Origin: Treponema sp.
GTDB lineage: Bacteria > Spirochaetota > Spirochaetia > Treponematales > Breznakiellaceae
Length of the DNA stretch: 64,000 nucleotides
Direction: 5' to 3'
Assembly: GCA_003527485.1 (NCBI GenBank)
Contig: DPXI01000088.1
Coordinates: 209,638 to 273,637, forward strand
A model generated the notes under the pieces. That model searched no databases, had not been told where the DNA came from, and worked only from the letters and a program-made list of their open reading frames with translations. A program made the position numbers and the translations under genes. Shown piece after piece: positions 10,824-46,565 of the stretch (the first letter of the stretch is position 1; every line of letters begins with the position of its first letter).

Positions 10824-11917
10824 AGATACCCTTTCGCCTTCAGAAGCTCCGCGTTGAGGATGCCGCCGCCGGCGGCGCCGCGCACGGTGTTGTGGGAGAG
10901 GCCCACGAAGCGCAGGTCGAACAGGGGACAGGGACGTACGCGACCCACCGTCACCGCCATCCCCTTGTCCGCGTCGCGGTCCTTGCGAGGCTGGGGCCGG
11001 TCGGCCTCCTCGCGGACTATGATGGGATGCAGGGGGGCTGAAGGCAGGCCGAGCTCCTGGGGCAAGGCCCGGAATGCTTTCCAGACGGCCCTCACCTCGT
11101 CAACCGAAGGCTTCCGGTCGCCGAATTCCATGGAGACGCAAGCCGTGTGCCCGTTCACGACCGGAACCCGGTTGCAGTGGGCGGCGATCAGAGGCCCGGA
11201 AGCGTTCTCGATGAGGCCGCCGTCGATCCGGCCCAGGATCTTGAGCGGTTCCTTTTCGGACTTTTCCTCTTCCCCGCCGATGAAGGGCACGATATTGTCG
11301 ATCATGTCCAAGCTGGGCACGCCCGGATAGCCGGCGCCGGAAACGGCCTGAAGGGTCGTCACGAACATGCGGCGGACTTCGAATCCTGCTTCCATCAGGG
11401 AATGGACCGGCGTCATGTAGCACTGGATGGAGCAGTTTGGTTTCACCACTATGAAGCCCTTGTCCCAGCCGCGGGATTTGCGCTGGACGGGGATGATGTC
11501 GGCATGGTGGTGGTTGATCTCGGGGATGAGCATGGGCACGTCGCCGGTCCAGCGATGGGCCGAGGCGTTGGACACCACCGGCAGGCCGGCGGCGGCGTAG
11601 GCTTCCTCGAGCGCCTTGATCTCGTCTTTGCCCATCTCCAGGGCGGAAAAGACGAAGGCGCAATCCCCGCGCGCGGCGGCGGCAGCCGCGGCCTTCACGT
11701 CATTCGCGTCGGCTACGATGAGGGACGCCACCTTGGCATCGTAGTCCTGCGCGAGCTGCCAGCGGCCGGCCACGGCCTCTGCGTAGCTCTTGCCGGCGCT
11801 CCGGGGGGAGGCCGCGACGAAACGGACTTCGAACCAGGGATGATCCCTGAGGAGGGCGATATATTGCTGTCCGACCATGCCCGTCGCTCCGAGCACGCCG
11901 ACCGGTATCCTGTTCAT
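10820..11917 (-). CDS. asd: Aspartate-semialdehyde dehydrogenase
   Basis: 365 aa. VGVLGATGMVGQ Rossmann motif and SGAGYPGV. Overlaps the lysA start. Confidence 0.85.
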   Translation of the reverse strand: MNRIPVGVLGATGMVGQQYIALLRDHPWFEVRFVAASPRSAGKSYAEAVAGRWQLAQDYDAKVASLIVADANDVKAAAAAAARGDCAFVFSALEMGKDEIKALEEAYAAAGLPVVSNASAHRWTGDVPMLIPEINHHHADIIPVQRKSRGWDKGFIVVKPNCSIQCYMTPVHSLMEAGFEVRRMFVTTLQAVSGAGYPGVPSLDMIDNIVPFIGGEEEKSEKEPLKILGRIDGGLIENASGPLIAAHCNRVPVVNGHTACVSMEFGDRKPSVDEVRAVWKAFRALPQELGLPSAPLHPIIVREEADRPQPRKDRDADKGMAVTVGRVRPCPLFDLRFVGLSHNTVRGAAGGGILNAELLKAKGYL

Positions 11918-35978: not shown

Positions 35979-37202
35979 ATGAAAAAGGCGACCTTCGGGT
36001 CCTCGCTCATCCTCATCGCCCTTGTCGGGACCGGTTCCGCGTACGCCGCGGCTTCGTCCTGCCTTGATTGCCACGGCAATATCGAGACGATGAAGTCGAT
36101 GGTGAGCATGCCCGTAGCCAGTTCCGCCGAGGGGGAAGGGTGAGCGGGTGCCCCTCCCCCGGTCCGGGCGGATTATTACATGGGATACGTGGTGGATACG
36201 AAAATGGCCGCGGCGGATCCCCACTTCCAGCAGGGCTGCGTCGCCTGCCATGAAGGAAACGCTTCAGGAAAGGACAAAGCCCAGTCCCACGCGGGGCTCG
36301 TGAAACGGCCGTCCGACGATCCGTCGGTCTGCGGGACCTGCCACGAGGGCATCGCCAAGACCTATACTCTGTCCCTCCATTACTCGAACGCCGGCATGAA
36401 GAACGGCATCTCCCCGCGCTTCTCAAAGGATGAGAAACATACTTACGACACGGCCGTCTTCGAACAGTCCTGCCGGAGTTGCCACGCATCCTGCGGCGAT
36501 TGCCACGTGAAGAGTCCGGTGATTTCGGGGGTCAATACCGGCCTCATGGACGGTCACGCCTTCGTGAGAAAAGACGAATCCAAGACCTGCGCCCTCTGCC
36601 ACGGCGGGCGGGTATACCCGGAGTTCACCGGCGATTACGGCGGCACTCCGGACGTCCATTACCGCAACGGCATGACCTGCCTCGACTGCCACACGTCCAC
36701 CCAGATGCACGGGAACGGAATGTCGTACGAAGGTCGCCGGGATGTCGAAGACAAGCCTTCCTGCCTTGCCTGCCATCCGCAGGGATCGGAAAAAACCGAA
36801 GAAGCCAAGTCGGCCCATGGCGACCATGGCGAAAAGGTGTCCTGTTCGGCCTGCCATACGGCGACCGGCTACCGCCAGTGCTCATCCTGCCACCTCGGAG
36901 AAGGAGCCGCCGCGAGCCCTGCGCTCATCCTCGGCTTGAATCCGCGCAAGGAAGGCCAACTCACCACGCTGCGCCTCATCCCCACGGTGCGGTCCACCTT
37001 CGAAAAGGCCGGCATCAAGCAGATGAATTTCGATTCCGTGCCGAATCTATGGGACACGGTTCCCCACAATGTGAAGAAGAGGACCGAAAGGACCCGGGAC
37101 TGCGCGCTTTGCCATTACGAGCAGGAGAATTACCTGACGGAGGAATCGCTTCCGAAGGACGGTTCGAGCGCCAACCTCAAGTTGATTCCCGCGGGCCATT
37201 AA
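35979..37202 (+). CDS. Multihaem (11 CxxCH) c-type cytochrome interrupted by a single in-frame UGA at 36141-36143. Annotate with a recoding or pseudogene caveat.
   Basis: ATG 35979 with AGGAGG RBS. MKKATFGSSLILIALVGTGSAYA signal peptide, then CLDCH, then TGA. It continues in the same frame (AGAPPPVRADYY, MGYVVD…) through 10 more CxxCH motifs. The downstream portion alone lacks any signal peptide. Confidence 0.6.
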
Positions 37203-37225
37203 GACCTGCCGGAAAGGAGTATTTT

Positions 37226-38104
37226 ATGAAGAGAATGTTGATCGCGGCGCTTGCCCTGTGCTTCGCCGCCCCCCTGTTCGCCCGCGACGTCGAGGCGATC
37301 GTGACCGCCGATTGGCTGGAGGCCAACCTCTCGAACCCCAAGGTCGTGGTCGTCGACGTACGCAAGGTGGAAGAGTACAAGGCCGCCCACATCAAGGGCG
37401 CGGTGAACGTGCTCGGGAGCAGCCTTTACGTGCCCGCGGCAGGACTCAGCAACGAGCTGCCGAACGCCGACGACCTCTCCGACATCCTCGCCGACGCGGG
37501 CATCGACGCGTCCTCGATAGTGGTGGTGGTGGAAAGCGACAGCGCCGCGCGCTTCGCCTGGGCCACCCGCGTGGCATGGACCCTCGCCTGGGCTGGCCTG
37601 GACAACGTGGCCGTGCTCTCCGGCGGCCAGAAAGCCTGGACGGACGCGAAAAAGCCTGTGGACGCCGACAAGGTCGCGAAAGCCGCCACCAAGTTCTCCG
37701 TCAAACCGCGCAACGAATACCTGGCGCTCCTCGGCGATGTGCTGAAAAGCAAGGGGCAGGTGATCGACAACCGTACCTACGACACCTACTTCGGCATCGT
37801 CAAGCAGGGTTTCGTCGCCCAGGCCGGCCATTACCCGAACGCGATCGCCCTGCCCTCCTCATGGATCGTCGGCGCCGACGGCCTCGTGAAGTCCCAGACG
37901 GAGCTCGCCAAGATGCCCGTGCTCCTCGGCCTTGATCCCTCGGTCGACACCATCACCTACTGCGATTCCGGCGTGCTCGCCACCGGCTGGTGGTGGATAC
38001 TCCACGAGCAGCTGGGTTGGAAAAACGTAAAAAGCTACGACGGCTCGTCCCAGGACCTGACCAAGGATCCCTCGGTCAAGTACGTGACCCACGTCTGGAA
38101 GTAG
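37226..38104 (+). CDS. Periplasmic tandem-rhodanese sulfurtransferase (thiosulfate/polysulfide sulfurtransferase-like)
   Basis: 292 aa from ATG 37226 (GGAAAGGAG RBS). Signal peptide MKRMLIAALALCFAAPLFA. Two rhodanese domains. Active-site Cys in …ITYCDSGVLATGWW…. Confidence 0.75.
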   Translation: MKRMLIAALALCFAAPLFARDVEAIVTADWLEANLSNPKVVVVDVRKVEEYKAAHIKGAVNVLGSSLYVPAAGLSNELPNADDLSDILADAGIDASSIVVVVESDSAARFAWATRVAWTLAWAGLDNVAVLSGGQKAWTDAKKPVDADKVAKAATKFSVKPRNEYLALLGDVLKSKGQVIDNRTYDTYFGIVKQGFVAQAGHYPNAIALPSSWIVGADGLVKSQTELAKMPVLLGLDPSVDTITYCDSGVLATGWWWILHEQLGWKNVKSYDGSSQDLTKDPSVKYVTHVWK

Positions 38105-38275: not shown

Positions 38276-38710
38276 TCAAAAATACGCAGGAAGCTCGAAA
38301 GCGTCGAAGGCCCGGAAGTCGTCGGGGTTTGCCGTAAGTAGCGCGGTGACCCCCGCAGACCGGTACGCCGCAGCCATATGAGTATCGATGATCCGTTTCC
38401 TTCCCAATTTGAACGCGACCGTCCATATCCGGGCTTGTTCGAAGGACTCCGCGGATTGATGCACGATCCGTACCCGTCTTTGGCGCATCCAGAAATGGGA
38501 GCGGACCAAGGCTTCGGGAAAGGAAAGCGGCGAATCGAAACGCTTCGGATCCGTAACGATGTGCATGAATTCCAGAAAGACATGGTCATAAACGGCAAAT
38601 AAATTATCCGAATCGCGACGCCAGTCCTCAAAATAGCGAAGCGCCCCGGCGTGACGGGGCGACTCGATCACCTCGAGATCCACCAGGAAGCTGGTATCAA
38701 TACCGGTCAT
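38276..38710 (-). CDS. vapC: PIN-domain toxin VapC
   Basis: MTGIDTSFLVDLEV… PIN acidic residues. Overlaps the antitoxin gene by 14 nt. Confidence 0.75.
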   Translation of the reverse strand: MTGIDTSFLVDLEVIESPRHAGALRYFEDWRRDSDNLFAVYDHVFLEFMHIVTDPKRFDSPLSFPEALVRSHFWMRQRRVRIVHQSAESFEQARIWTVAFKLGRKRIIDTHMAAAYRSAGVTALLTANPDDFRAFDAFELPAYF

Positions 38711-38948
38711 CGAGCATCTCGTCCCGGAAATCCCCCAAGGCCCAATCCTTTTTTATCCCCCCCAGGGAGATCGGTTTCCAATTCTCCAATGTGCTTGCGC
38801 CCAGGATACGATTCCTCGCGTAGTCTTCCATCGCTTCTCGGATGAGCTCCGATGCTGTCCTATCGGAACCAAGCGCCGTCTCCTTGAAAAGCTGGTAAAG
38901 CGGTTCTGATACATTGATAGTAACAGGCTTCATATGGTTATCATACAT
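38697..38948 (-). CDS. vapB: VapB-type antitoxin (RHH/CopG-like)
   Basis: 83 aa, …TASELIREAMEDYA… ribbon-helix-helix. Immediately upstream of and overlapping vapC. Confidence 0.65.
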   Translation of the reverse strand: MYDNHMKPVTINVSEPLYQLFKETALGSDRTASELIREAMEDYARNRILGASTLENWKPISLGGIKKDWALGDFRDEMLDDRY

Positions 38949-39034
38949 ATATTACACGTAAAAAGCAAATATTATTACCGGAAGGCGACTGCCGCTCAGA
39001 GCCGACCCCGATTGCCTTAACTCCGCCCCGCCCC

Positions 39035-39874
39035 CTACAGCCTGTACTCAGCCCCGACTGCCAGAGGCCGGTACGCGGGAAGCCGTGCCGCCAGGGAAGC
39101 TTTCCCCGCGTCCCCGGTGCAGTGCCCGAGCGCCGCGAGGCTGCAGGAAGTTGCCCCGAGATAGTCGACCGTCGACGAAATCCGTTCCGCGTCCGCATCG
39201 ACCAGATGGGAGCCTCCGAAGACCGCGACCACCGTCTTCCCGAAAGCCTTGCGGACCGCGTCCAGCATGTTCATTATTCCGGGATGGGCGCAGCCCAGCA
39301 CCGCGGCGATGCCGCCGGGAACCTCGATCGCGAGGCAGACCTCATCCCGGAAATCGTCCATCGTCCGGCGCCCGTCCCGGTCCACCACGAATCGCGGATT
39401 CGGCCGCTCCCGGGTATGGAGGCGCGGAAAACCGTTGACCACAAAGACGCCGGGCAACGCCTCCATAAAAGCGGTATCCCCGCCGGATGCGGTGACTGTA
39501 CGGTGTTCGATCCGCCGGCTTAAAAGGAAATCTCCGTCAAAGTCCACGCCCAGATAACGGGGGGCAGGCTCTTCGTCGGCCCATTTCTTGTCGAAGAATC
39601 CGCCGCCCGTATACAGCGGTCCGTTGAAGGCGGTCCGGTCGAGAAGGGCGCGGACTCCTCCGCCGTGGTCGTAATGGCCGTGGCTGACGACCAGCGCCTC
39701 CGCCGCGCCCGGTTCCGCGCCGAGCCCGCGGGCATTGTCCAGGAAAGCGCCGCTCCCGCCGGTATCGAAGAGCAGGGACCTTCCGTCCCTCTCGACCAGG
39801 AAGCAAAGGCCGTGTTCGGCCGTCGTGCCTGCGCGTCCCGGGGAATTGTCCATGAGGGTAATAATCCGGATCAT
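39035..39874 (-). CDS. MBL-fold metallo-hydrolase, downstream of selD
   Basis: HGHYDHGGG motif. Start at MIRIITLMDN with GGAGG RBS. 21 nt after the selD stop. Confidence 0.75.
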   Translation of the reverse strand: MIRIITLMDNSPGRAGTTAEHGLCFLVERDGRSLLFDTGGSGAFLDNARGLGAEPGAAEALVVSHGHYDHGGGVRALLDRTAFNGPLYTGGGFFDKKWADEEPAPRYLGVDFDGDFLLSRRIEHRTVTASGGDTAFMEALPGVFVVNGFPRLHTRERPNPRFVVDRDGRRTMDDFRDEVCLAIEVPGGIAAVLGCAHPGIMNMLDAVRKAFGKTVVAVFGGSHLVDADAERISSTVDYLGATSCSLAALGHCTGDAGKASLAARLPAYRPLAVGAEYRL

Positions 39875-39897
39875 AGGCTCCTCAGAAAAACGGAAGG

Positions 39898-40986
39898 CTA
39901 GCCGACGACGCGGATGCGGGCGCCGTCGGCGGCGCCGCGTCCCGCGCGCGGGACGCATTCGCCGATCACCGCGAATTCCACGCCGCTGGCCGCAAGGGCG
40001 CCGAGGGCTGCTCCGAGTCCGGCGGGCGGGACCGCGGCCAACAGGCCGCCGGAGGTTTCCGGCGCGAAAAGGAGGGTCCTGAAGGCTTCGTCGGCGCAGG
40101 GAGCGCCTTCGCCTTCGAATGCGACCTTTCCCGCATACGCGTGCCGGTTACGGGCGGCGCCGCCGGGCACAAAGCCCCCGCGGACGCAGTCGGCCGCGCC
40201 CGCGATCATGGGAACGGCCGAAGCGCGCACGAGGAGATCGATCCCGCTCTTGTCAGCGAGCTCAAGGGCGTGGCCCGCGAAGCCGAAGCCGGTGACGTCG
40301 GTCGCGCTGAGGCAGTCCGCCGCCAGGAAGGCGCGCGCGGCGTCGCGGTTGAGCAGTTTCATGGAAGCCACCGCCGCCGCGAGGACCCCGGCGGGGGCGG
40401 CGCGCGACTTTGCGGCCGTAGTGATGATCCCCGTCCCCAGCGCTTTGGTCAGCACCAGGACGTCTCCGGCCCGCGCGCCGGTCTTCAGCAGGAGCCTGTC
40501 CGGCTTGCCGATGCCGAGCACGGCCAGGCCGAACTTCGGCTCGGCGTCCATGATGGTGTGGCCGCCGGCGACCGCGCACCCGGCCTCGGCGGACTTCTCG
40601 GCGCCTCCGCGGATGATCTCGGCGATGACCGAGGGATCCAGGTCGGAAGGAAAGGCGGCGATATTCAGGGCCATGATCGGCTCGCCGCCCGTAGCGTAGA
40701 CATCGGAGAGCGCGTTTGCCGCGGCGATGGCGCCGAAATCGTAGGGATCATCCACCACGGGGGTGAAGAAGTCCGTCGTGAAAATCAAGGCCGTATCGTC
40801 GTTCAGGCGGTAGACGGCGGCGTCGTCGCCTTCGGCCAGCCCGACCAAAAGGTCGGCGCGGCGCTCGGGAGGAACAAAGCCTGACAGGGGACGCAGGACC
40901 TGCGCCAGGGCCTCAGGGCCCATTTTTGCCGCTCACCCCGCCGCGGAGCAGAGCGACGTCAGCCGAACGATGTCGTCCTTGGTCAT
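39898..40986 (-). CDS. selD: Selenide, water dikinase (selenophosphate synthetase) containing selenocysteine. In-frame UGA at 40933-40935.
   Basis: Manual translation from ATG 40986 (AAGGAG RBS) gives MTKDDIVRLTSLCSAAG-U-AAKMGPEALAQ…, which aligns with E. coli LTQYSHGAG-C-GCK. The downstream region has the AIR-synthase-like fold. A GGGCCCUGAGGCCC hairpin starts 12 nt after the UGA. The ORF track lists only 39898..40923. Confidence 0.85.
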
Positions 40987-41043
40987 CGGATCTCCTTCGA
41001 GCCGAGTGTAGGGGGAGATCTGCCGTGAGGTCAAGGAAGGATT

Positions 41044-42000
41044 CTACGCTTCGCAATCCTGCAGGGATAGCCTGAGCGCTTCGGCATCGAAGTCCTTCCC
41101 GATGAAGATCATCGCGCTCAGCCGTTCCTCTCCGTTTTTCCAGGGCTTGGCCGCCAGCAGGGGGCGGCCGCCGACGTACTGCAGGATGTACTTGCTTTCC
41201 TCGGTCCGCGGGTCGGAAAAGCGCAGGAAACCCTTGGCCCGCACGACGGAACGCGGCAGGACGTCCAGGAAGGCGCTGAAACGCTCCAGGTCCAGAGGCT
41301 TCTCCGTCTTGTGGAAATAGCTCTCCACATGGGCGTGCCTGCCGCCGTGCCCGCTGCAGTACCCGCCTTCGCCGAGCTGCCCGTTCTCCAGGGCAGCCAA
41401 GTCCTCATGGTCGTAGCGGGCGCCCTCCGTCACGAGTGAAGTCGGAAAATCGGCGTCAAGCGACAGGATGCGCGCGTCCCTTTTCCGGCTCAGGATGAAT
41501 TTCCTCACACGCGCGGCCGCTTCGGGTCCGGCGAGCTCCAATTTATTCAGCAGGATGAAATCCGCGAATTCGAGCTGCTGGACAGCGATGGCAAAATCCT
41601 CGATCGAATCCAGGTAATTCAGCGTATCCACCACGCAGACGATCGAATCGAAATGGAGCCGCCCGTCGAGGTCGTTGAGAATGAAGGCCGCGGCGATGGG
41701 CACCGGATCGGAGAGGCCCGACGCTTCCAGCAGGATATGGCCGATATTTTTCCCCACCGCCAGCAAGCCTTCTATCGTTTTCACCAGGTCGTCCCGCACC
41801 ACGCAGCACATGCAGCCGTTCGGCAATTCCGCGATTTCGTTGTCCCCCGCCTCCACGATCTTGCTTTCCAGCTTCACGTCGCCGAATTCGTTCAGCACGA
41901 GGCCGAAGCGGATCTCCGGATGCTCGGCGACGATGCGGCTGATGAAGGTGCTCTTGCCGGCGCCCAGGAAACCGCAAATCAGGGTGACGGGAATCTTCAT
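41044..42000 (-). CDS. COG0523 (CobW/ZigA/YeiR-like) metallochaperone GTPase
   Basis: GFLGAGKST P-loop, GCMCC metal-binding motif, C-terminal CobW_C domain. The listed ORF extends to 42102 through the 9-nt tandem repeats. Confidence 0.8.
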   Translation of the reverse strand: MKIPVTLICGFLGAGKSTFISRIVAEHPEIRFGLVLNEFGDVKLESKIVEAGDNEIAELPNGCMCCVVRDDLVKTIEGLLAVGKNIGHILLEASGLSDPVPIAAAFILNDLDGRLHFDSIVCVVDTLNYLDSIEDFAIAVQQLEFADFILLNKLELAGPEAAARVRKFILSRKRDARILSLDADFPTSLVTEGARYDHEDLAALENGQLGEGGYCSGHGGRHAHVESYFHKTEKPLDLERFSAFLDVLPRSVVRAKGFLRFSDPRTEESKYILQYVGGRPLLAAKPWKNGEERLSAMIFIGKDFDAEALRLSLQDCEA

Positions 42001-42139
42001 AAGCGGCAGTATAAGGCCCGGCTCCGAAAACGGGCAAGGATAAACGGAATCCTGCCGGACCTGCCGGTCCTGCCGGTCCTGCCGGTACGCGCCGGAGGCC
42101 AAGCTTGACGGTCCTCCCGCCCTCGCCTAGTATTGGCGA

Positions 42140-42229
42140 GGAAGCGGATGGGGTCCGGCGGCCCCCGCGGTCTTCAAAACCGTTGGCCGCGATTCATCGC
42201 GGCGGCAGGATCGACACCTGCCCCTTCCG
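42140..42229 (+). tRNA. selC: tRNA-Sec (selC), anticodon UCA
   Basis: GGAAGCGGATGGGGTCCGG…GGTCTTCAAAACCG…long variable arm…GCAGGATCGACACCTGCCCCTTCCG. This is collinear with E. coli selC, with anticodon loop CUUCAAA (UCA at 42174-42176) and T-loop GGATCGACACC. The long acceptor stem has one C-C mismatch. Confidence 0.75.
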
Positions 42230-42247
42230 TATTTCCCCGGAGGCCCC

Positions 42248-43648
42248 ATGGAACAAGAGGACGTCAGGTCGCGTCTGCCCCAAGTCGAGCGCCTGCTCGG
42301 TCTTCCGGAGGTGTCCGCCTACTTCGAACGCATTTCCCGACCGCTCGCCGCCCGCGCGGTTTCCCGCGTCCTCGCGGCGGAACGCCAGAGGCTGACGGAA
42401 GAGCCGGACAGCGGAATCGGGGAAGACGAACTGCTCGCCGCGGTGATCGCCGCCCTGGACGAACTCGATCGAAGGCGGATACGCAAGGTCGTCAACGGTA
42501 CGGGCATCGTGCTGCACACCAACCTGGGGCGCTCACCTCTATCCCCGGCCGCCTGGAAAGACGCCGCCGAGGCTGTGGAAGGGTATTCCAACCTGGAGTT
42601 CGAGGTCGAAGCCGGAAAGCGGGGCAGGCGCGGGGGACTCTCATCCGAACTCCTGCGCGCCTTGACGGGAGCCGAGGACGCCCTGGTCGTCAACAACAAC
42701 GCCGCGGCGATGGTGCTCGCCCTCGCCTGCTTCGCGTCGGGCAAGGACGTGCTCGTGTCCCGCGGAGAGGCCGTGCAAATCGGCGGAGGCTTCCGAGTGC
42801 CGGACATACTGGCGATGTCGGGCGCGCGCCTGAAGGAAGTCGGGACCACGAACGTGACGACCGAAGAAGACTACCTGAACGCGATAGACGGCGAAACGGC
42901 AGTGGCGCTCTCCGTCCACGCTTCCAATTTCGCCATCCGCGGCTTCACGCGCAAGCCCGATCTCAGCCTGCTTTCCGCCGCCCTTCCGAAGAACGTGATC
43001 CTGATCGCCGACCAGGGCTCGGGCTGCTGCGAAGCGGGCGTGCCCGCGGAAACGCCCGTGCGCAATTACCTCCGCGACGGGGTCCGTCTGGTCTGCTTTT
43101 CCTGCGACAAGATACTCGGCGGTCCCCAGGCAGGGGCGATCGTGGGCGATGCCGCGCTCATCGCCCGGCTCTCCCGGCATCCCCTGATGCGCGCCTTCCG
43201 TCCCGGCAAGGTGACCCTCGCGGTCCTGGAGCGCTGCCTGGTCGCCCGCTTGGGGGGAAATCCCGGCAACGGCGACGAGCCTCCCGCCGGATCTCCCGTC
43301 GAGCGCGCGCTCCGCAGGACTTCGACCGAAGGCATCCATGAGCTCAAGGCGCTCGGCCGGCGCGTCATCAGGCGGCTCCCGAAAGCCTCCGCGATCCTGG
43401 TCGAATCGCGCGCGGCGATAGGCGGCGGGAGTTCCCCCGACGAGACCCTCCCCTCCTTCGCCCTGGTCCTGAAGGGCGCGCGGGGTGCTGAATCCCTGCT
43501 GGCCGCCTTGCGCCTCGGAAGGGTCCCGCTCATCGGGAGAGTGGAATCCAGCTCCGTGATCGTCGACCTGCTGACCCTCGCCGACGAGGACGACAAGCTC
43601 GTCTCGAACCTCATCCTTGAAGCCCTGGAAAAAGAGGGCGGTTCTTGA
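42248..43648 (+). CDS. selA: L-seryl-tRNA(Sec) selenium transferase
   Basis: 466 aa. …[11 protein letters not shown]… and the PLP-lysine motif [13 protein letters not shown]. Confidence 0.9.
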
Positions 43649-45636
43649 TAGTCGTCGCGCTCGCGGGCCACGTCGACCACGGGAAGACGGCCCTCGTCCG
43701 CGCGCTCACGGGAATCGACACCGACCGGCTGCCGGAGGAAAAGGCGCGGGGCATGACGACCGACCTCGGCTTCGCCGCCCTGGATCTGCCGCCGGGCGAC
43801 GGAGCTTCCGGCTCCACTCGGCCTGCCCGCAGGGTAGGCCTCGTAGACGTACCCGGCCACGAGCGCTACATCCGCAACATGGCCGCGGGAGCCTGGGGAG
43901 CCGACCTCTGCTTCCTGTGCACGGCCGCGGATGACGGCTGGATGGATCAGACCGAAAACCATTGCCGCCTCCTTTCGGCCTTCGGCCTTCCGCGCGCGAT
44001 CGTGATAGTGACCAAGATCGACTTGGTCGAAAGGAAACGCGCACAAGAAGTCGGCGCCGATGCGCGCCGGCGGGCGGCCATCATCCTCGGGGAAGCGGCC
44101 ATCGCGGAAGGCTTCATCGCGACGAGCGCGCTGACGGGCGAAGGCCTGGCCGAAACCATGGAGCTGGCCGCGCGTGAATGCGACGCCATCCTGACCGCCC
44201 GCGCCTCCGCGGGACGCGCCTCCGCGGGACGCGCCTCCGCGGAACGGGCCGCTCCTGAACGGGCCGGCGCGGGAGCGGGCGCCTGGCTCTTCGTCGACCG
44301 CGTCTTCTCCAAGAAAGGCGCGGGCCTGGTGGTCTGCGGCACCCTGCGCGGCGGCGCCGTCCGAGTCGAGGACGAGCTTGTCCTCCGCCCCGCGGGCGAG
44401 ACGCTCCGGGTCAAGGGAGCCGAAAGCCTCGGCGCGGCCGTCGGACAGGCGGAGCCGGGAGGCCGGGTAGCCTTCAACACGACCAAGCCGAAAGTGGAGA
44501 TTCGCCGCGGCGACCTGCTTTGCGCTCCGGGAGCCGCGACCTTGCAGGCGTCCGAGTTCATCGTGCGCGTGGAGGAAACCGGGCGATCTATCGAGCGCCG
44601 CGAAAAGGCCGACCGCGCGCTGACCAAGGGCGGAGAGGCCGAACTCGTCGCCGGCAGCGCGCGGCGGACCGTCCGGCTGGAACCATTCGGCAAGGGCGGC
44701 TTCTTCAGGCTCATCTGCGACGAAAAGCTGGCCGTACCGCGCGGGATCCGGGCCGCCCTCGTCCGCTCTGGAGGGGCTGAGCTCCTCGGCGCCGTTACCT
44801 TCGTCCATGCGGGTGACTGCGGAAAAGCGGGCCGCAAACGGGCGCGTGAAACTGCGGCCGCCGTCGCGACCGCCGTCGCGGCCGCCGATGCGGGCGCGGC
44901 CGCCGCCGTAGCCACCGGCGTGGCCGCGGACGGACGTTTCGCGGCCCTCGCGGTGGCGACCGCCATCGACGGGGCGACTCCCCTCGATCGGGAGGCGCTG
45001 GGCTATCTGCCCGACCCCGAGGCGCTTGAGGAGTGCGGCTTCATCGTCATCGTCGGTCATCTGGTGGACAAGCGGGCAGCCAAACCGACCCGCCCCGCCG
45101 GCGGCCCCGGGACCATGAACCCGAAGACGAACGGGAACGGTAACCGGAAGCAGGGAGACGCGACTTTCAGGCTCCCGCAGCCTGTAGCGCTCGCCCTGGC
45201 CGAAAAAGCGGCGGCAGCCACCAAAATCCGCGTTCCGGAACGGACCGGACCTTCTCCCGCTGCGCTGGACGCCGAACGCGCGCTGCGCGCCGCGGGGATC
45301 GCGGGCATCGAGCCGAACGCCGCGCCGGAGCGGGGAAAGCCGCCGCCCCCCCAACGCAAGCTCCTGGAGGAACTCTGCTCCGCAAAGCTCGCCGTGCCCC
45401 TGGACCGCGACCTCTTCTGGCATACGGAAACCTACGACCGCGCCGCGGCCTCCGTGCTTTCGGGCCTGGAACCCGGCGGGCGCCTCACCATCGCCGACGC
45501 CAAGCAGCGCGCCGGCCTTTCCCGGAAATACGCCATCCCCTTCCTGAACCGCCTTGAACGCGACGGCTGGGTCAAGCGGGACGGGGAAACCCGCGTCGTG
45601 CAGAAACGATGGACGGCGGACGGTGGAGATGAATAA
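43645..45636 (+). CDS. selB: Selenocysteine-specific elongation factor
   Basis: [43 protein letters not shown]…[15 protein letters not shown]… matches E. coli SelB closely. Long C-terminal winged-helix extension. Confidence 0.9.
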
Positions 45637-45673
45637 AGCGGTACGTCGAAGAAGCCCGATCCTCCGATCGTCG

Positions 45674-45704
45674 AGGACGGCCGTCAGGATTCGGCTGCCG
45701 TCCT
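45674..45704. terminator. Hairpin AGGACGGC-N15-GCCGTCCT between the convergent selB and HAD genes. Possible bidirectional terminator.
   Basis: Seen directly. Overlaps the HAD stop codon. No T-run. Confidence 0.3.
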
Positions 45705-46565
45705 GATCCAAGCCGGCGTTCGGGGCAAGGCGGCCCGGAAAGAAGCGAGCAAGTCGGACTCCTCCCGCTCCCCGTACCTTCCCGCAAGCCAGGCATCCAG
45801 GACTTCATCGGCAAGCAGGCGCCAGGATTCCGTCTCCGAACCGGGGACGATCGGGAAAAATCGCGCTCCCGCCTCCCGTGCTGCATCCAGGTCACCCGGC
45901 GCGTCCCCCACCATGAGGGCAGGACCCCGCACTTCGGAGAGGCCCCAATTGAGCTGTTCCGCTTTGGATCCGAATTCCTGTCCTGCCGCGATCCAGATGA
46001 ACTCCAGCAAGCCGTTGGCTTCCCATTCGCGTTCGATCGCTTCCGCGGGCGTCTGGGAGACGACCATCAGGTCCGCAACGCGGCTCGCGCGCTCCAGCGT
46101 CCCGGCGACCCGCGGAAAGGGGGGAACGGACTTCGCGACCGCGGCGACGGCGGCATTCACGTCACGCGACCAGGCCAGAACGAGCGGGAGTTCGTCCGAA
46201 CGCGTTCCGGCGATGAATCGTTCCAAGGCGGGCTCGGATAGGCTGTCGGATCCGGCCACCCAGGCTTCAAGACCGGGCAGATCGGGCACCGTGAACCCGC
46301 GGGCCGCAATATCGGGATGCGACTTGAGCAGACGGAGCGCGGCCAGTACGGCCCTGAACCGGTTGACGCCCCTCGTCGTCGAGTCAAGGTTGACGAATTC
46401 CCAGGTTTCCCGTGCGGCTTTGGAAACAGCCTGCAGCCCGAAGCGGCCTATAAAAGCCGGGCAGAAGCATTCGCGGTGCTTCAGGCCCATCGAATCGAAT
46501 ACGCAACCATCCGAATCGAATCCGATCAGGGCGGCATGTCCGCGCGGCGCAACTTTCATCTTCAT
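45684..46565 (-). CDS. HAD-superfamily hydrolase
   Basis: MKMKVAPRGHAALIGFDSDGCVFDS… HAD motif I. The start overlaps the DUF2264 stop. Confidence 0.7.
   Translation of the reverse strand: MKMKVAPRGHAALIGFDSDGCVFDSMGLKHRECFCPAFIGRFGLQAVSKAARETWEFVNLDSTTRGVNRFRAVLAALRLLKSHPDIAARGFTVPDLPGLEAWVAGSDSLSEPALERFIAGTRSDELPLVLAWSRDVNAAVAAVAKSVPPFPRVAGTLERASRVADLMVVSQTPAEAIEREWEANGLLEFIWIAAGQEFGSKAEQLNWGLSEVRGPALMVGDAPGDLDAAREAGARFFPIVPGSETESWRLLADEVLDAWLAGRYGEREESDLLASFRAALPRTPAWIRTAAES

What the first reader, a model, noticed from the sequence alone, without database searches (positions are those of the whole stretch)
39898..40986. selD is a selenoprotein. In-frame UGA at 40933-40935 with a downstream hairpin; the ORF track truncated the gene.
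Reverse translation upstream of the listed SelD ORF (39898..40923) continues in frame through TGA to an ATG at 40986 with an AAGGAG RBS. The product reads MTKDDIVRLTSLCSAAG-[UGA]-AAKMGPEAL…. This aligns residue-for-residue with the catalytic N-terminus of E. coli SelD (LTQYSHGAG-C-GCK) and places UGA at the Cys17 position. Sec-containing SelD is a known phenomenon. A stem-loop GGGCC-CUGA-GGCCC begins 12 nt 3' of the UGA, consistent with a bacterial SECIS. A standard gene caller would start SelD at the internal Met and lose the active site.
Basis: partly seen in the sequence, partly recalled or inferred. Interest (0 to 1): 0.6.

Follow-up and report, generated by a model that had tools for sequence, protein, structure and literature searches.

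The report
Selenocysteine-encoding selD gene, mis-truncated
The selD gene here really does contain an in-frame UGA that encodes selenocysteine at its catalytic site, so ORF finders cut off its first 21 codons; this is a correct but ordinary finding, because SelD is one of the two commonest bacterial selenoproteins.

Summary
On the minus strand an ATG (40986) with an AAGGAG ribosome-binding site opens a frame that runs through TGA 40935-40933 into the listed SelD ORF. The 362-aa product matches the SelD equivalog model from model position 1. The TGA falls on E. coli Cys17 and on the natural Sec site of Aquifex SelD. A tRNA-Sec gene, selA and selB lie 1.2-4.7 kb away. Of 148 related loci first typed at this codon, 136 carry TGA and 12 carry TGC/TGT. 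The peptide upstream of the TGA evolves as coding sequence.

[quoted passage not shown] The adjacent hairpin (HP2, GGCGCAG-GUC-CUGCGUC, 40906-40890) meets all four published criteria. HP2 is the more conserved of the two, shows covariation, and is largely lost in Cys-type genes. A two-hairpin layout for the selD SECIS has already been published (Mariotti 2015, supplement).

Verdict: a real, correctly interpreted and already known kind of feature. Its value is as an annotation fix. Interest is low.

The parts
39898..40986 (-). Full-length selD coding sequence: 362 codons (codon 18 is UGA, read as Sec) followed by the TAG stop
   Evidence: Searches give the sequence and translation. TIGR00476 scores 360.1 bits (cutoff 125), residues 8-322 on model positions 1-309. 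AIRS (PF00586) and AIRS_C (PF02769) domains. E. coli SelD 3u0o, E = 3e-68.
40992..40997 (-). AAGGAG ribosome-binding site, 5 nt upstream of the ATG
   Evidence: Read directly from the sequence. Function is inferred.
40984..40986 (-). True start codon ATG
   Evidence: Close relatives L163-L166 have an ATG at the same codon, L167 has one a codon away, and L001/L002/L081 have TTG or GTG at the equivalent position.
40933..40935 (-). In-frame UGA, the selenocysteine codon (residue 18, equivalent to E. coli Cys17)
   Evidence: TGA occupies this codon in 136 of the 148 related loci first typed, and TGC/TGT in 12.
40921..40923 (-). Internal ATG (Met22), the false start used by ORF finders
   Evidence: One search lists the ORF as 39898..40923. 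Most database homologues are truncated at the same Met.
40908..40921 (-). It starts 11 nt after the UGA and its loop starts 16 nt after the UGA
   Evidence: fold.: -8.7 kcal/mol, but it fails the rule of a G in the first two loop positions; only 50.7% of cells are paired in this register across 135 sequences; the region still prefers its own arms (p = 3e-20).
40890..40906 (-). Hairpin HP2, GGCGCAG-GUC-CUGCGUC (loop at 40899-40897), the probable SelB-binding apex of the SECIS
   Evidence: 7 bp stem, 3-nt loop G-U-C, 33 nt spacing, -8.6 kcal/mol, meeting all four published criteria; 77.4% of cells paired and 6 of 7 pairs with double-sided changes; a compliant hairpin at this site in 94 of 138 Sec forms.
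42139..42230 (+). selC, the tRNA-Sec gene (anticodon TCA)
   Evidence: ARAGORN. Rfam RF01852 scores 63.9 bits against a gathering score of 47.
42248..43648 (+). selA, L-seryl-tRNA(Sec) selenium transferase
   Evidence: TIGR00474 scores 447.4 bits against a cutoff of 267.9. PF03841 SelA. The gene ends on an ordinary TGA stop.
43645..45636 (+). [quoted passage not shown]
   Evidence: TIGR00475 scores 227.8 bits, just under the 242.25 cutoff. PF00009 is present, and PF09107 SelB-wing_3 covers residues 612-651.

Best explanation
This is a Sec-type selD gene (selenide, water dikinase, also called selenophosphate synthetase). Translation starts at ATG 40986. At codon 18 the UGA is not read as a stop. 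Instead, SelB carrying GTP and Sec-tRNA(Sec) is tethered to a stem-loop in the mRNA just downstream and delivers selenocysteine. This yields a 362-residue enzyme whose N-terminal glycine-rich loop reads ...SAAG-U-AAK..., with Sec in place of E. coli Cys17 and with the Lys20 equivalent retained. All the trans-acting parts are encoded next door: tRNA-Sec, SelA and SelB. The SECIS is a two-hairpin module lying within codons 22-34. The distal hairpin HP2 (40906-40890, apex G-GUC-C) is the more likely SelB-binding apex. The proximal hairpin HP1 (40921-40908) probably acts as a spacer or helper. Because SelD makes the selenophosphate needed to charge tRNA-Sec, the enzyme depends on its own product. 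Shown here: the reading frame, the homology, the TGA/Cys correspondence, conservation across the TGA, the presence of the machinery, and the conservation and covariation of the hairpins. Inferred: actual Sec insertion, which hairpin binds SelB, and the start codon. My sub-probabilities are about 0.95 that the gene is Sec-encoding and about 0.6 that HP2, not HP1, is the SelB-binding apex.
For: 1. The extended product matches TIGR00476 from model position 1 at 360.1 bits. The truncated ORF matches only from position 16 at 338.5 bits, and it falls just under the NF002098 cutoff (298.8 against 299, compared with 318 for the extended form).
2. The TGA aligns with E. coli Cys17 and with the Aquifex Sec-to-Cys site, and Lys20 is conserved.
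3. Most close database homologues begin at MGPEAL..., while the Cys forms read IRLTSLCSAGG-C-AAKMGPEAL. At the DNA level, 136 of the 148 loci first typed carry TGA at this codon, preceded by the conserved peptide.
4. The 12 codons upstream of the TGA vary at 0.23, 0.11 and 0.52 at codon positions 1, 2 and 3, which is a coding signature.
5. tRNA-Sec, selA and selB are adjacent, and SelB carries the SelB-wing_3 domain.
6. TGA is an ordinary stop elsewhere in the window, including at the end of selA.
7. HP2 meets all four published bSECIS criteria, whereas HP1 fails the loop-G rule (criteria from PMC13188914).
8. On 135 distinct sequences, HP2 is 77% paired and 6 of its 7 pairs show double-sided changes. 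The covariation score is 0.184, against 0.123 for shuffles (0 of 500 reach it) and at most 0.119 for slid registers.
9. A model-compliant hairpin is present in 118 of 138 Sec forms but only 2 of 14 Cys forms (p = 8e-8). Compliance at the HP1 and HP2 sites is negatively associated (odds ratio 0.13, p = 1e-6).
10. Third-position variation drops to 0.28 over the hairpins, against 0.52 upstream of the TGA.
11. Published work describes the selD bSECIS as two stem-loops. In Clostridiales stem2 lies downstream of stem1, and stem2 alone fits the model (PMC4561486 supplement).
Against: - There is no direct evidence of Sec insertion, such as proteomics or 75Se labelling.
- The folding energy of the region is no better than dinucleotide shuffles (z = +0.5).
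- Rfam has no SECIS match here.
- HP2 is encoded by the conserved peptide A-Q-V-L-R. Part of its conservation, including the invariant G-U of the Val codon in the loop, could therefore be protein-level constraint. The CAG/CUG versus CAA/UUG covariation could partly reflect GC content.
- The Sec and Cys sets are not phylogenetically independent or lineage-matched, and only 14 Cys forms were available.
- HP1, not HP2, sits at the 11-nt distance that E. coli requires (PMC8659212). The HP1 region also shows the stronger own-arm preference.
- SelB scores slightly below its equivalog cutoff.
Confidence: 0.93

Rival explanations
1. The gene is Sec-encoding, but the SelB-binding SECIS is the reader's hairpin HP1 (40921-40908). 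On this reading, HP2 is a by-product of the conserved AQVLR peptide in a GC-rich genome, or only an accessory element.
For: HP1 begins 11 nt after the UGA, exactly where the E. coli minimal SECIS begins (nt 15-31; PMC8659212). It is stable at -8.7 kcal/mol. The HP1 region shows the strongest own-arm versus swapped-arm preference (p = 3e-20). In some lineages, such as the Ardenticatenaceae-type loci, a long hairpin at this site with a GGA or GGC loop is clearly the compliant element.
Against: In the window the loop CUGA has no G in its first two positions, so HP1 fails the published consensus. HP1 has no bulged U and no G-U apex. In the window's register only 50.7% of cells pair across 135 sequences. 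The arms are Gly-Pro and Ala-Leu codons (GGN CCN ... GCC CUG), which are inherently self-complementary, and 4-bp versions persist in Cys forms. Sequences with a compliant HP2 tend not to have a compliant HP1.
Confidence: 0.22
2. The TGA is a genuine stop. SelD starts at Met22 (ATG 40923) and the 17-codon upstream frame is fortuitous.
For: This is what ORF finders report, and it is how most database homologues are called. No proteomic data are available.
Against: The truncated protein lacks the catalytic Sec/Cys-x-x-Lys loop and starts at model position 16. The upstream peptide is conserved across phyla with a coding pattern of substitution. Cys forms carry TGC/TGT at exactly this codon. A strong RBS precedes ATG 40986, whereas only GCGGCAAAA precedes ATG 40923. 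The complete Sec machinery is adjacent.
Confidence: 0.02
3. The UGA is read through without selenocysteine. Either Cys or Trp is inserted by near-cognate decoding, or the gene is a decaying pseudogene or carries a sequencing error at a former TGC/TGT codon.
For: A single-base change converts TGC or TGT to TGA. Sec-to-Cys and Cys-to-Sec switches do occur in this family (L161 versus L005; PMC1794560 and the PMC4561486 supplement).
Against: TGA is found at this codon in 136 independent loci, including a 99%-identical relative from another sample (L163). The rest of the gene is intact and scores far above the family cutoff. A consensus-compliant SECIS is present downstream, and such elements are largely lost in Cys forms. 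TGA is a normal stop in this genome.
Confidence: 0.03

Closest known systems
Sec-containing bacterial SelD (selenophosphate synthetase), for example in Aquifex aeolicus, Deltaproteobacteria, Clostridia and Treponema denticola
   Same: It has the same family, the same Sec position in the N-terminal G-U-x-x-K loop, the same AIRS and AIRS_C fold, and the same dependence on selABC. The local sequence SAAG-U-AAKMGP closely resembles Aquifex SSG-U-AAKVGP. [quoted passage not shown]
   Different: Nothing differs in kind. This copy comes from an uncharacterised, spirochaete-like lineage; the closest named relatives are Spirochaetota and Treponema MAGs at 60-68% identity.
E. coli SelD (Cys17 form; PDB 3u0o)
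   Same: The alignment is full-length, with 233.8 bits and E = 3e-68. The Lys20 equivalent and the DDAAVY, TTDFF and TDVTGFG motifs are conserved.
   Different: E. coli uses Cys (TGC) and needs no SECIS. Here the codon is UGA and SECIS hairpins overlap codons 22-34.
Published selD bSECIS models (Mariotti et al. 2015, Supplementary S6, Clostridiales type)
   Same: There are two stem-loops after the Sec UGA. Stem2 lies downstream of stem1, has a minimal 3-4 nt apex, and alone fits the Zhang and Gladyshev 2005 consensus. That is the layout seen here.
   Different: Those models were built for Clostridiales, Campylobacter, Deltaproteobacteria and Pasteurellales, not for Spirochaetota or Chloroflexota. 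I could not see their figure, so the correspondence rests on the text description only.
E. coli fdhF SECIS (the experimentally defined paradigm)
   Same: It is a stem-loop inside the coding region just 3' of the UGA, with a G-U at the apex read by SelB. The HP2 apex G-GUC-C resembles the fdhF GGUC loop (the loop sequence is from my memory; G23/U24 are cited from PMC8659212).
   Different: In fdhF a single 17-nt hairpin starts 11 nt after the UGA and has a bulged U17. Here the G-U apex lies on the second hairpin, 33 nt from the UGA, with no bulged U. The hairpin at the 11-nt position (HP1) lacks the G-U apex.

Membership tests
SelD / selenide, water dikinase (TIGR00476, NF002098) | Equivalog HMM score above the curated cutoff over the full length | tested here: met
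   TIGR00476 scores 360.1 bits (cutoff 125), on model positions 1-309 of 311. NF002098 scores 318 bits (cutoff 299).
SelD / selenide, water dikinase (TIGR00476, NF002098) | N-terminal glycine-rich loop with a catalytic Sec/Cys and Lys (E. coli Cys17 and Lys20) | tested here: met
   In the alignment to 3u0o, the UGA codon (residue 18) corresponds to Cys17 and K21 to Lys20. The catalytic roles of these residues are from established knowledge.
SelD / selenide, water dikinase (TIGR00476, NF002098) | AIR-synthase-related N- and C-terminal domains (PurM-like fold) | tested here: met
   PF00586 scores 104.4 bits over residues 53-159, and PF02769 scores 52.5 bits over residues 172-348.
SelD / selenide, water dikinase (TIGR00476, NF002098) | ATP-dependent synthesis of selenophosphate from selenide | not testable with these tools
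   This requires an enzyme assay.
Bacterial selenoprotein gene (UGA-to-Sec recoding) | In-frame UGA aligned with Cys in homologues, with protein conservation on both sides | tested here: met
   The typing gave 136 TGA against 12 TGC/TGT at this codon. Cys homologues read ...GG-C-AAKMGPEAL. The upstream codons show 3rd > 1st > 2nd position variation.
Bacterial selenoprotein gene (UGA-to-Sec recoding) | Sec-decoding machinery in the genome (selC, selA, selB, selD) | tested here: met
   tRNA-Sec is found by ARAGORN and by Rfam at 63.9 bits. selA scores 447 bits. selB scores 227.8 bits and carries SelB-wing_3.
Bacterial selenoprotein gene (UGA-to-Sec recoding) | Selenium actually incorporated at the UGA position | not testable with these tools
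   This requires mass spectrometry or 75Se labelling.
bSECIS consensus (Zhang & Gladyshev 2005, as given in PMC13188914), applied to HP2 (40906-40890) | Apical loop of 3-9 nt, upper stem of 4-16 bp, a G in the first two loop positions (N1-G-[G|U]-N-N2), 16-37 nt from the UGA to the loop, and MFE of -7.5 kcal/mol or lower | tested here: met
   The loop is GUC (3 nt), closed by a G-C pair to give G-G-U-C-C. The stem is 7 bp, the spacing is 33 nt and the energy is -8.6 kcal/mol. This was my own implementation of the criteria, not the bSECISearch program.
   The loop is CUGA (4 nt), the stem is 5 bp, the spacing is 16 nt (at the lower limit) and the energy is -8.7 kcal/mol, so three criteria pass. 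There is no G in the first two loop positions, so that criterion fails.
E. coli fdhF-type SECIS | A single upper hairpin starting 11 nt after the UGA, with a bulged U17 and a G23-U24 apex | tested here: not met
   HP1 has the 11-nt spacing but no bulged U and no G-U apex. HP2 has the G-U apex but starts 26 nt after the UGA (features from PMC8659212).
Rfam SECIS families | Covariance-model match | tested here: not met
   In 39000-46000 at E up to 1, the only relevant hit is tRNA-Sec. Bacterial coding-region SECIS elements are poorly represented in Rfam, so this result carries little weight.

The most novel reading that the evidence does not exclude
Across Sec-type selD genes, the SelB-binding apex may alternate between two fixed sites. 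One is a proximal hairpin about 16-20 nt from the UGA, with GGA or GGC loops. The other is a distal hairpin 33 nt from the UGA, with G-U-N loops built from the Val codon of A-Q-V-L. Compliant hairpins at the two sites are negatively associated (odds ratio 0.13). In the window's lineage the proximal hairpin would then serve only as a structured spacer that brings a distal apex within reach of SelB. That would be a SECIS geometry not covered by the E. coli 11-nt rule.
Probability: 0.35. Interest if true: 0.3.

Novelty: already known. Interest (0 to 1): 0.15.

Why it matters
The main value is in annotation. Calling the gene from Met22 removes the catalytic Sec-x-x-Lys loop, drops the protein just under one equivalog cutoff (298.8 against 299), and hides the fact that this organism is a selenocysteine user. 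In the protein database searched, most close homologues carry the same truncation, so the error is systematic. Biologically, a Sec-type SelD means the enzyme that supplies selenium for Sec synthesis itself requires Sec. This self-dependence has long been noted for the family. The comparative data gathered here give a usable picture of the selD SECIS in lineages not covered by the published models. The data comprise 138 distinct Sec forms and 14 distinct Cys forms from Spirochaetota, Chloroflexota, Acidobacteriota and others. This refines known biology and is not a discovery.

Tried and rejected
1. An outer stem (P1) pairing the Ala-Ala-Lys codons with codons after Pro-Leu and enclosing both hairpins. 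It appears in the window's MFE fold and looked compensatory in several relatives. An own-versus-swapped duplex test showed no signal (p = 0.27), so I dropped it.
2. Thermodynamic significance of the fold. The z-score is +0.5 against dinucleotide shuffles, which is uninformative in a 62% GC coding region.
3. Rfam. There is no SECIS-family hit.
4. A second selenoprotein gene in the window, to compare SECIS loops within one genome. A scan for TGA-split frames with compliant hairpins gave 14 hits. Apart from selD, the two I translated are false: at 11102(-) the real gene starts downstream of the TGA and the upstream frame is Arg-rich noise, and 32647(-) is noise throughout. I did not translate the other 11.
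5. A clean Cys-form control with an identical peptide. L161 (P0064) has the same CAAKMGPEALAQVLRPL peptide. However, it is almost identical in this segment to the Sec form L005, so it looks like a recent TGA-to-TGC convert with a remnant SECIS and not an independent control.
6. DNA for two other Cys forms (P0007, P0079) could not be retrieved.
7. A reassigned genetic code (TGA as a sense codon). I rejected this because TGA ends 26 of 50 long frames, including selA at the end of its family model.
8. The cobW-like gene upstream as a CobW-related selenoprotein. It scores 33.9 bits against a cutoff of 180, so it is not a member.

Full report
**Observation.** On the minus strand the sequence reads ...GAAGGAGATCCG ATG ACC AAG GAC GAC ATC GTT CGG CTG ACG TCG CTC TGC TCC GCG GCG GGG TGA GCG GCA AAA ATG GGC CCT GAG GCC CTG.... 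The ATG is at 40986-40984 and AAGGAG is at 40997-40992. The in-frame TGA at 40935-40933 is codon 18. The ATG used by the ORF list is at 40923-40921, and the TAG stop is at 39900-39898.

**Identity of the product.** With the TGA read as Cys, the 362-aa product scores 360.1 bits on the SelD equivalog TIGR00476 (cutoff 125), with residues 8-322 on model positions 1-309. It scores 318 bits on NF002098 (cutoff 299). The truncated 341-aa ORF matches TIGR00476 only from model position 16, at 338.5 bits. It also falls just under the NF002098 cutoff, at 298.8 bits. Pfam finds the AIRS and AIRS_C domains. Against solved structures, residues 4-351 align to E. coli SelD 3u0o residues 3-341 (E = 3e-68). 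The UGA codon therefore corresponds to Cys17 and K21 to Lys20. The Aquifex aeolicus SelD crystal constructs read SSG-C-AAKVGP at the same place, against SAAG-U-AAKMGP here. From my own knowledge, that Cys replaces the natural Sec in Aquifex.

**Relatives.** In the large protein collection the closest homologues are named Spirochaetes, Spirochaetia or Spirochaetaceae where a name is given. Nearly all of them begin at MGPEALAQVLRPL, the Met three codons after the TGA. The few full-length ones read IRLTSLCSAGG-C-AAKMGPEAL. I fetched DNA for 168 related loci. At the codon aligned to Cys17, 136 of the 148 loci first typed carry TGA and 12 carry TGC or TGT. Eight further loci typed later gave 5 Sec forms and 3 Cys forms. 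The Sec forms have the (I/V)(R/K)LT...G peptide conserved upstream. They come from Spirochaetota, Chloroflexota, Acidobacteriota, a Blautia and others. A 99%-identical relative from another sample (L163) has the same TGA and the same selA / cobW-like / selD gene order. In the close set, the 12 codons before the TGA differ at rates of 0.23, 0.11 and 0.52 at codon positions 1, 2 and 3, which is a coding signature.

**Machinery and genetic code.** A tRNA-Sec gene (anticodon TCA) lies at 42139-42230 (ARAGORN; Rfam RF01852 at 63.9 bits against a gathering score of 47). It is followed by selA at 42248-43648 (447 bits) and selB at 43645-45636. SelB scores 227.8 bits, slightly under its equivalog cutoff of 242.25, and contains low-complexity Ala/Gly/Arg inserts. 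It retains the GTPase domain and the SECIS-binding SelB-wing_3 domain at residues 612-651. TGA is an ordinary stop in this window. It ends 26 of 50 long stop-to-stop frames, and it ends selA where the family model ends. The selD UGA is therefore a site-specific recoding event and not a reassigned code.

**The SECIS.** The 63 nt from the UGA fold into two adjacent hairpins.
- HP1 is GGGCC-CUGA-GGCCC at 40921-40908.
- HP2 is GGCGCAG-GUC-CUGCGUC at 40906-40890.

The fold energy is no better than shuffled sequence (z = +0.5), so the case has to be comparative. The published bacterial SECIS consensus has four criteria (Zhang and Gladyshev 2005, as restated in PMC13188914):
- a 3-9 nt apical loop on a 4-16 bp stem;
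- a G in one of the first two loop positions, usually in the pattern N1-G-[G|U]-N-N2;
- 16-37 nt between the UGA and the loop;
- MFE of -7.5 kcal/mol or lower.

[quoted passage not shown] HP2 has a 7 bp stem, the loop GUC closed by G-C (giving G-G-U-C-C), 33 nt spacing and -8.6 kcal/mol, so it meets all four.

I made an ungapped alignment of 135 distinct Sec-type sequences (A1) and counted pairs on it.
- HP2 is paired in 77.4% of cells, and 6 of its 7 pairs show double-sided changes. Examples are CAG/CUG to CAA/UUG, GCA/UGC to GUA/UAC, and GCG/CGC to GCC/GGU in the Blautia locus.
- HP1 in the window's register is paired in only 50.7% of cells, because its register and sequence differ between lineages.
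- The overall covariation score is 0.184, against 0.123 for shuffles (0 of 500 reach it) and at most 0.119 for slid registers.

A register-free chimera test compared each sequence's own 3' arm with arms swapped in from other sequences. It supports real pairing in both regions of the Sec forms (HP1 region p = 3e-20, HP2 region p = 2e-9). It does not support an outer enclosing stem (p = 0.27), so I dropped that stem.

Folding each site separately, with bulges allowed, gave the following.
- 118 of 138 Sec forms have a model-compliant hairpin, against 2 of 14 Cys forms (p = 8e-8). One of those two Cys forms is L161.
- 94 Sec forms are compliant at the HP2 site, with loops GUU, GUC, GUG or GUA.
- 37 Sec forms are compliant at the HP1 site, with loops GGA, GGC or CGGA.
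- The two sites are negatively associated (odds ratio 0.13, p = 1e-6). This is as expected if each gene has one SelB-binding apex at one site or the other.
- The window is compliant only at HP2.

Third-position variation over the hairpins is 0.28, against 0.52 in the 12 codons upstream of the UGA.

In its supplement, Mariotti et al. 2015 describe the selD bSECIS as two stem-loops. For Clostridiales they describe stem2 as lying downstream of stem1 with a minimal 3-4 nt apex, and as fitting the consensus on its own. That is the same layout as here.

**Caveats on the HP2 assignment.**
- HP2 is encoded by the conserved A-Q-V-L-R peptide, and the loop G-U is the Val codon. Protein constraint and GC content therefore contribute to its conservation.
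- The loci are not phylogenetically independent, and the Cys set is small.
- HP1, not HP2, sits 11 nt after the UGA, where the E. coli minimal SECIS sits (PMC8659212).
- I put about 0.6 on HP2 as the SelB-binding apex and about 0.2 on HP1. The remainder goes to a composite element.

**Comparison with what is known.** Sec-containing SelD is textbook. Zhang et al. [quoted passage not shown] They list SelD in the selenoproteomes of many Deltaproteobacteria and Clostridia, and they note that Treponema denticola is selenoprotein-rich. They also report Sec-to-Cys conversions in SelD that leave remnant SECIS-like structures (PMC1794560). I saw exactly that in L161 compared with L005. This gene is a member of the SelD family, and every testable defining feature is met. 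It is a bacterial selenoprotein gene by every criterion short of direct detection of selenium. Its SECIS is not of the E. coli fdhF type: no single hairpin combines the 11-nt spacing, the bulged U and the G-U apex. It does fit the general bacterial consensus through HP2.

**Verdict.** The feature is already known in kind. Its practical value is in correcting a systematic annotation error. Interest is 0.15.

Noticed in passing
window 42139-45636 (+) and 41044-42102 (-): selC (tRNA-Sec), selA and selB form a cluster that diverges from a cobW-like GTPase gene. That gene sits immediately 5' of selD on the same strand, with a 57-nt gap. The 99%-identical relative L163 has the same selA / cobW-like / selD order. 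The cobW-like protein has the usual GCMCC motif. It scores only 33.9 bits on the 'CobW-related selenoprotein' model (cutoff 180), so it is not that family.
   Followed up: partly
window 43645-45636 (+): SelB scores 227.8 bits, just under its equivalog cutoff of 242.25. It carries Ala/Gly/Arg-rich low-complexity inserts (for example [27 protein letters not shown] and [27 protein letters not shown]), but it keeps the SelB-wing_3 domain at residues 612-651. Its TTG start overlaps the selA TGA stop (TTGA).
   Followed up: partly
window 36180-38104 (+); L164 and L166: A multihaem c-type cytochrome (36180-37202) and a tandem-rhodanese protein (about 37240-38104) lie near selD. The two closest metagenomic relatives with long contigs show selB-selA / selD-SSF transporter-rhodanese-multihaem cytochrome. 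The association of selD with a rhodanese and a cytochrome is therefore conserved. A role in selenium or sulfur handling is possible but untested.
   Followed up: no
L015 (about 5048 and 6281): An Anaerolineae MAG contig carries two Sec-type selD copies in tandem. Each has TGA at the Cys17 position and the conserved upstream peptide.
   Followed up: no
L161 versus L005: A Cys-type selD (TGC) whose first 50 nt after the codon are almost identical to those of a Sec-type relative, with HP2 still mostly intact. It looks like a recent Sec-to-Cys conversion with a remnant SECIS, of the kind described by Zhang et al. 2006.
   Followed up: partly
window 38276-38948 (-): Two small overlapping ORFs (83 aa and 144 aa) lie between the rhodanese gene and the metallo-beta-lactamase-fold gene. 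Their arrangement resembles a toxin-antitoxin pair, but neither has a Pfam hit at E of 1e-3 or better.
   Followed up: partly
window 39035-39874 (-): A metallo-beta-lactamase-fold protein (PF00753, 48.7 bits) is encoded immediately downstream of selD, starting 24 nt after the selD stop. It may be co-transcribed. Its function is unknown.
   Followed up: no
window 40890-40923 (-) and the equivalent region in 12 close relatives: Synonymous (third-position) variation in the 12 codons after the UGA is about half that in the 12 codons before it (0.28 against 0.52). This is a footprint of RNA-structure constraint overlapping the coding sequence.
   Followed up: yes
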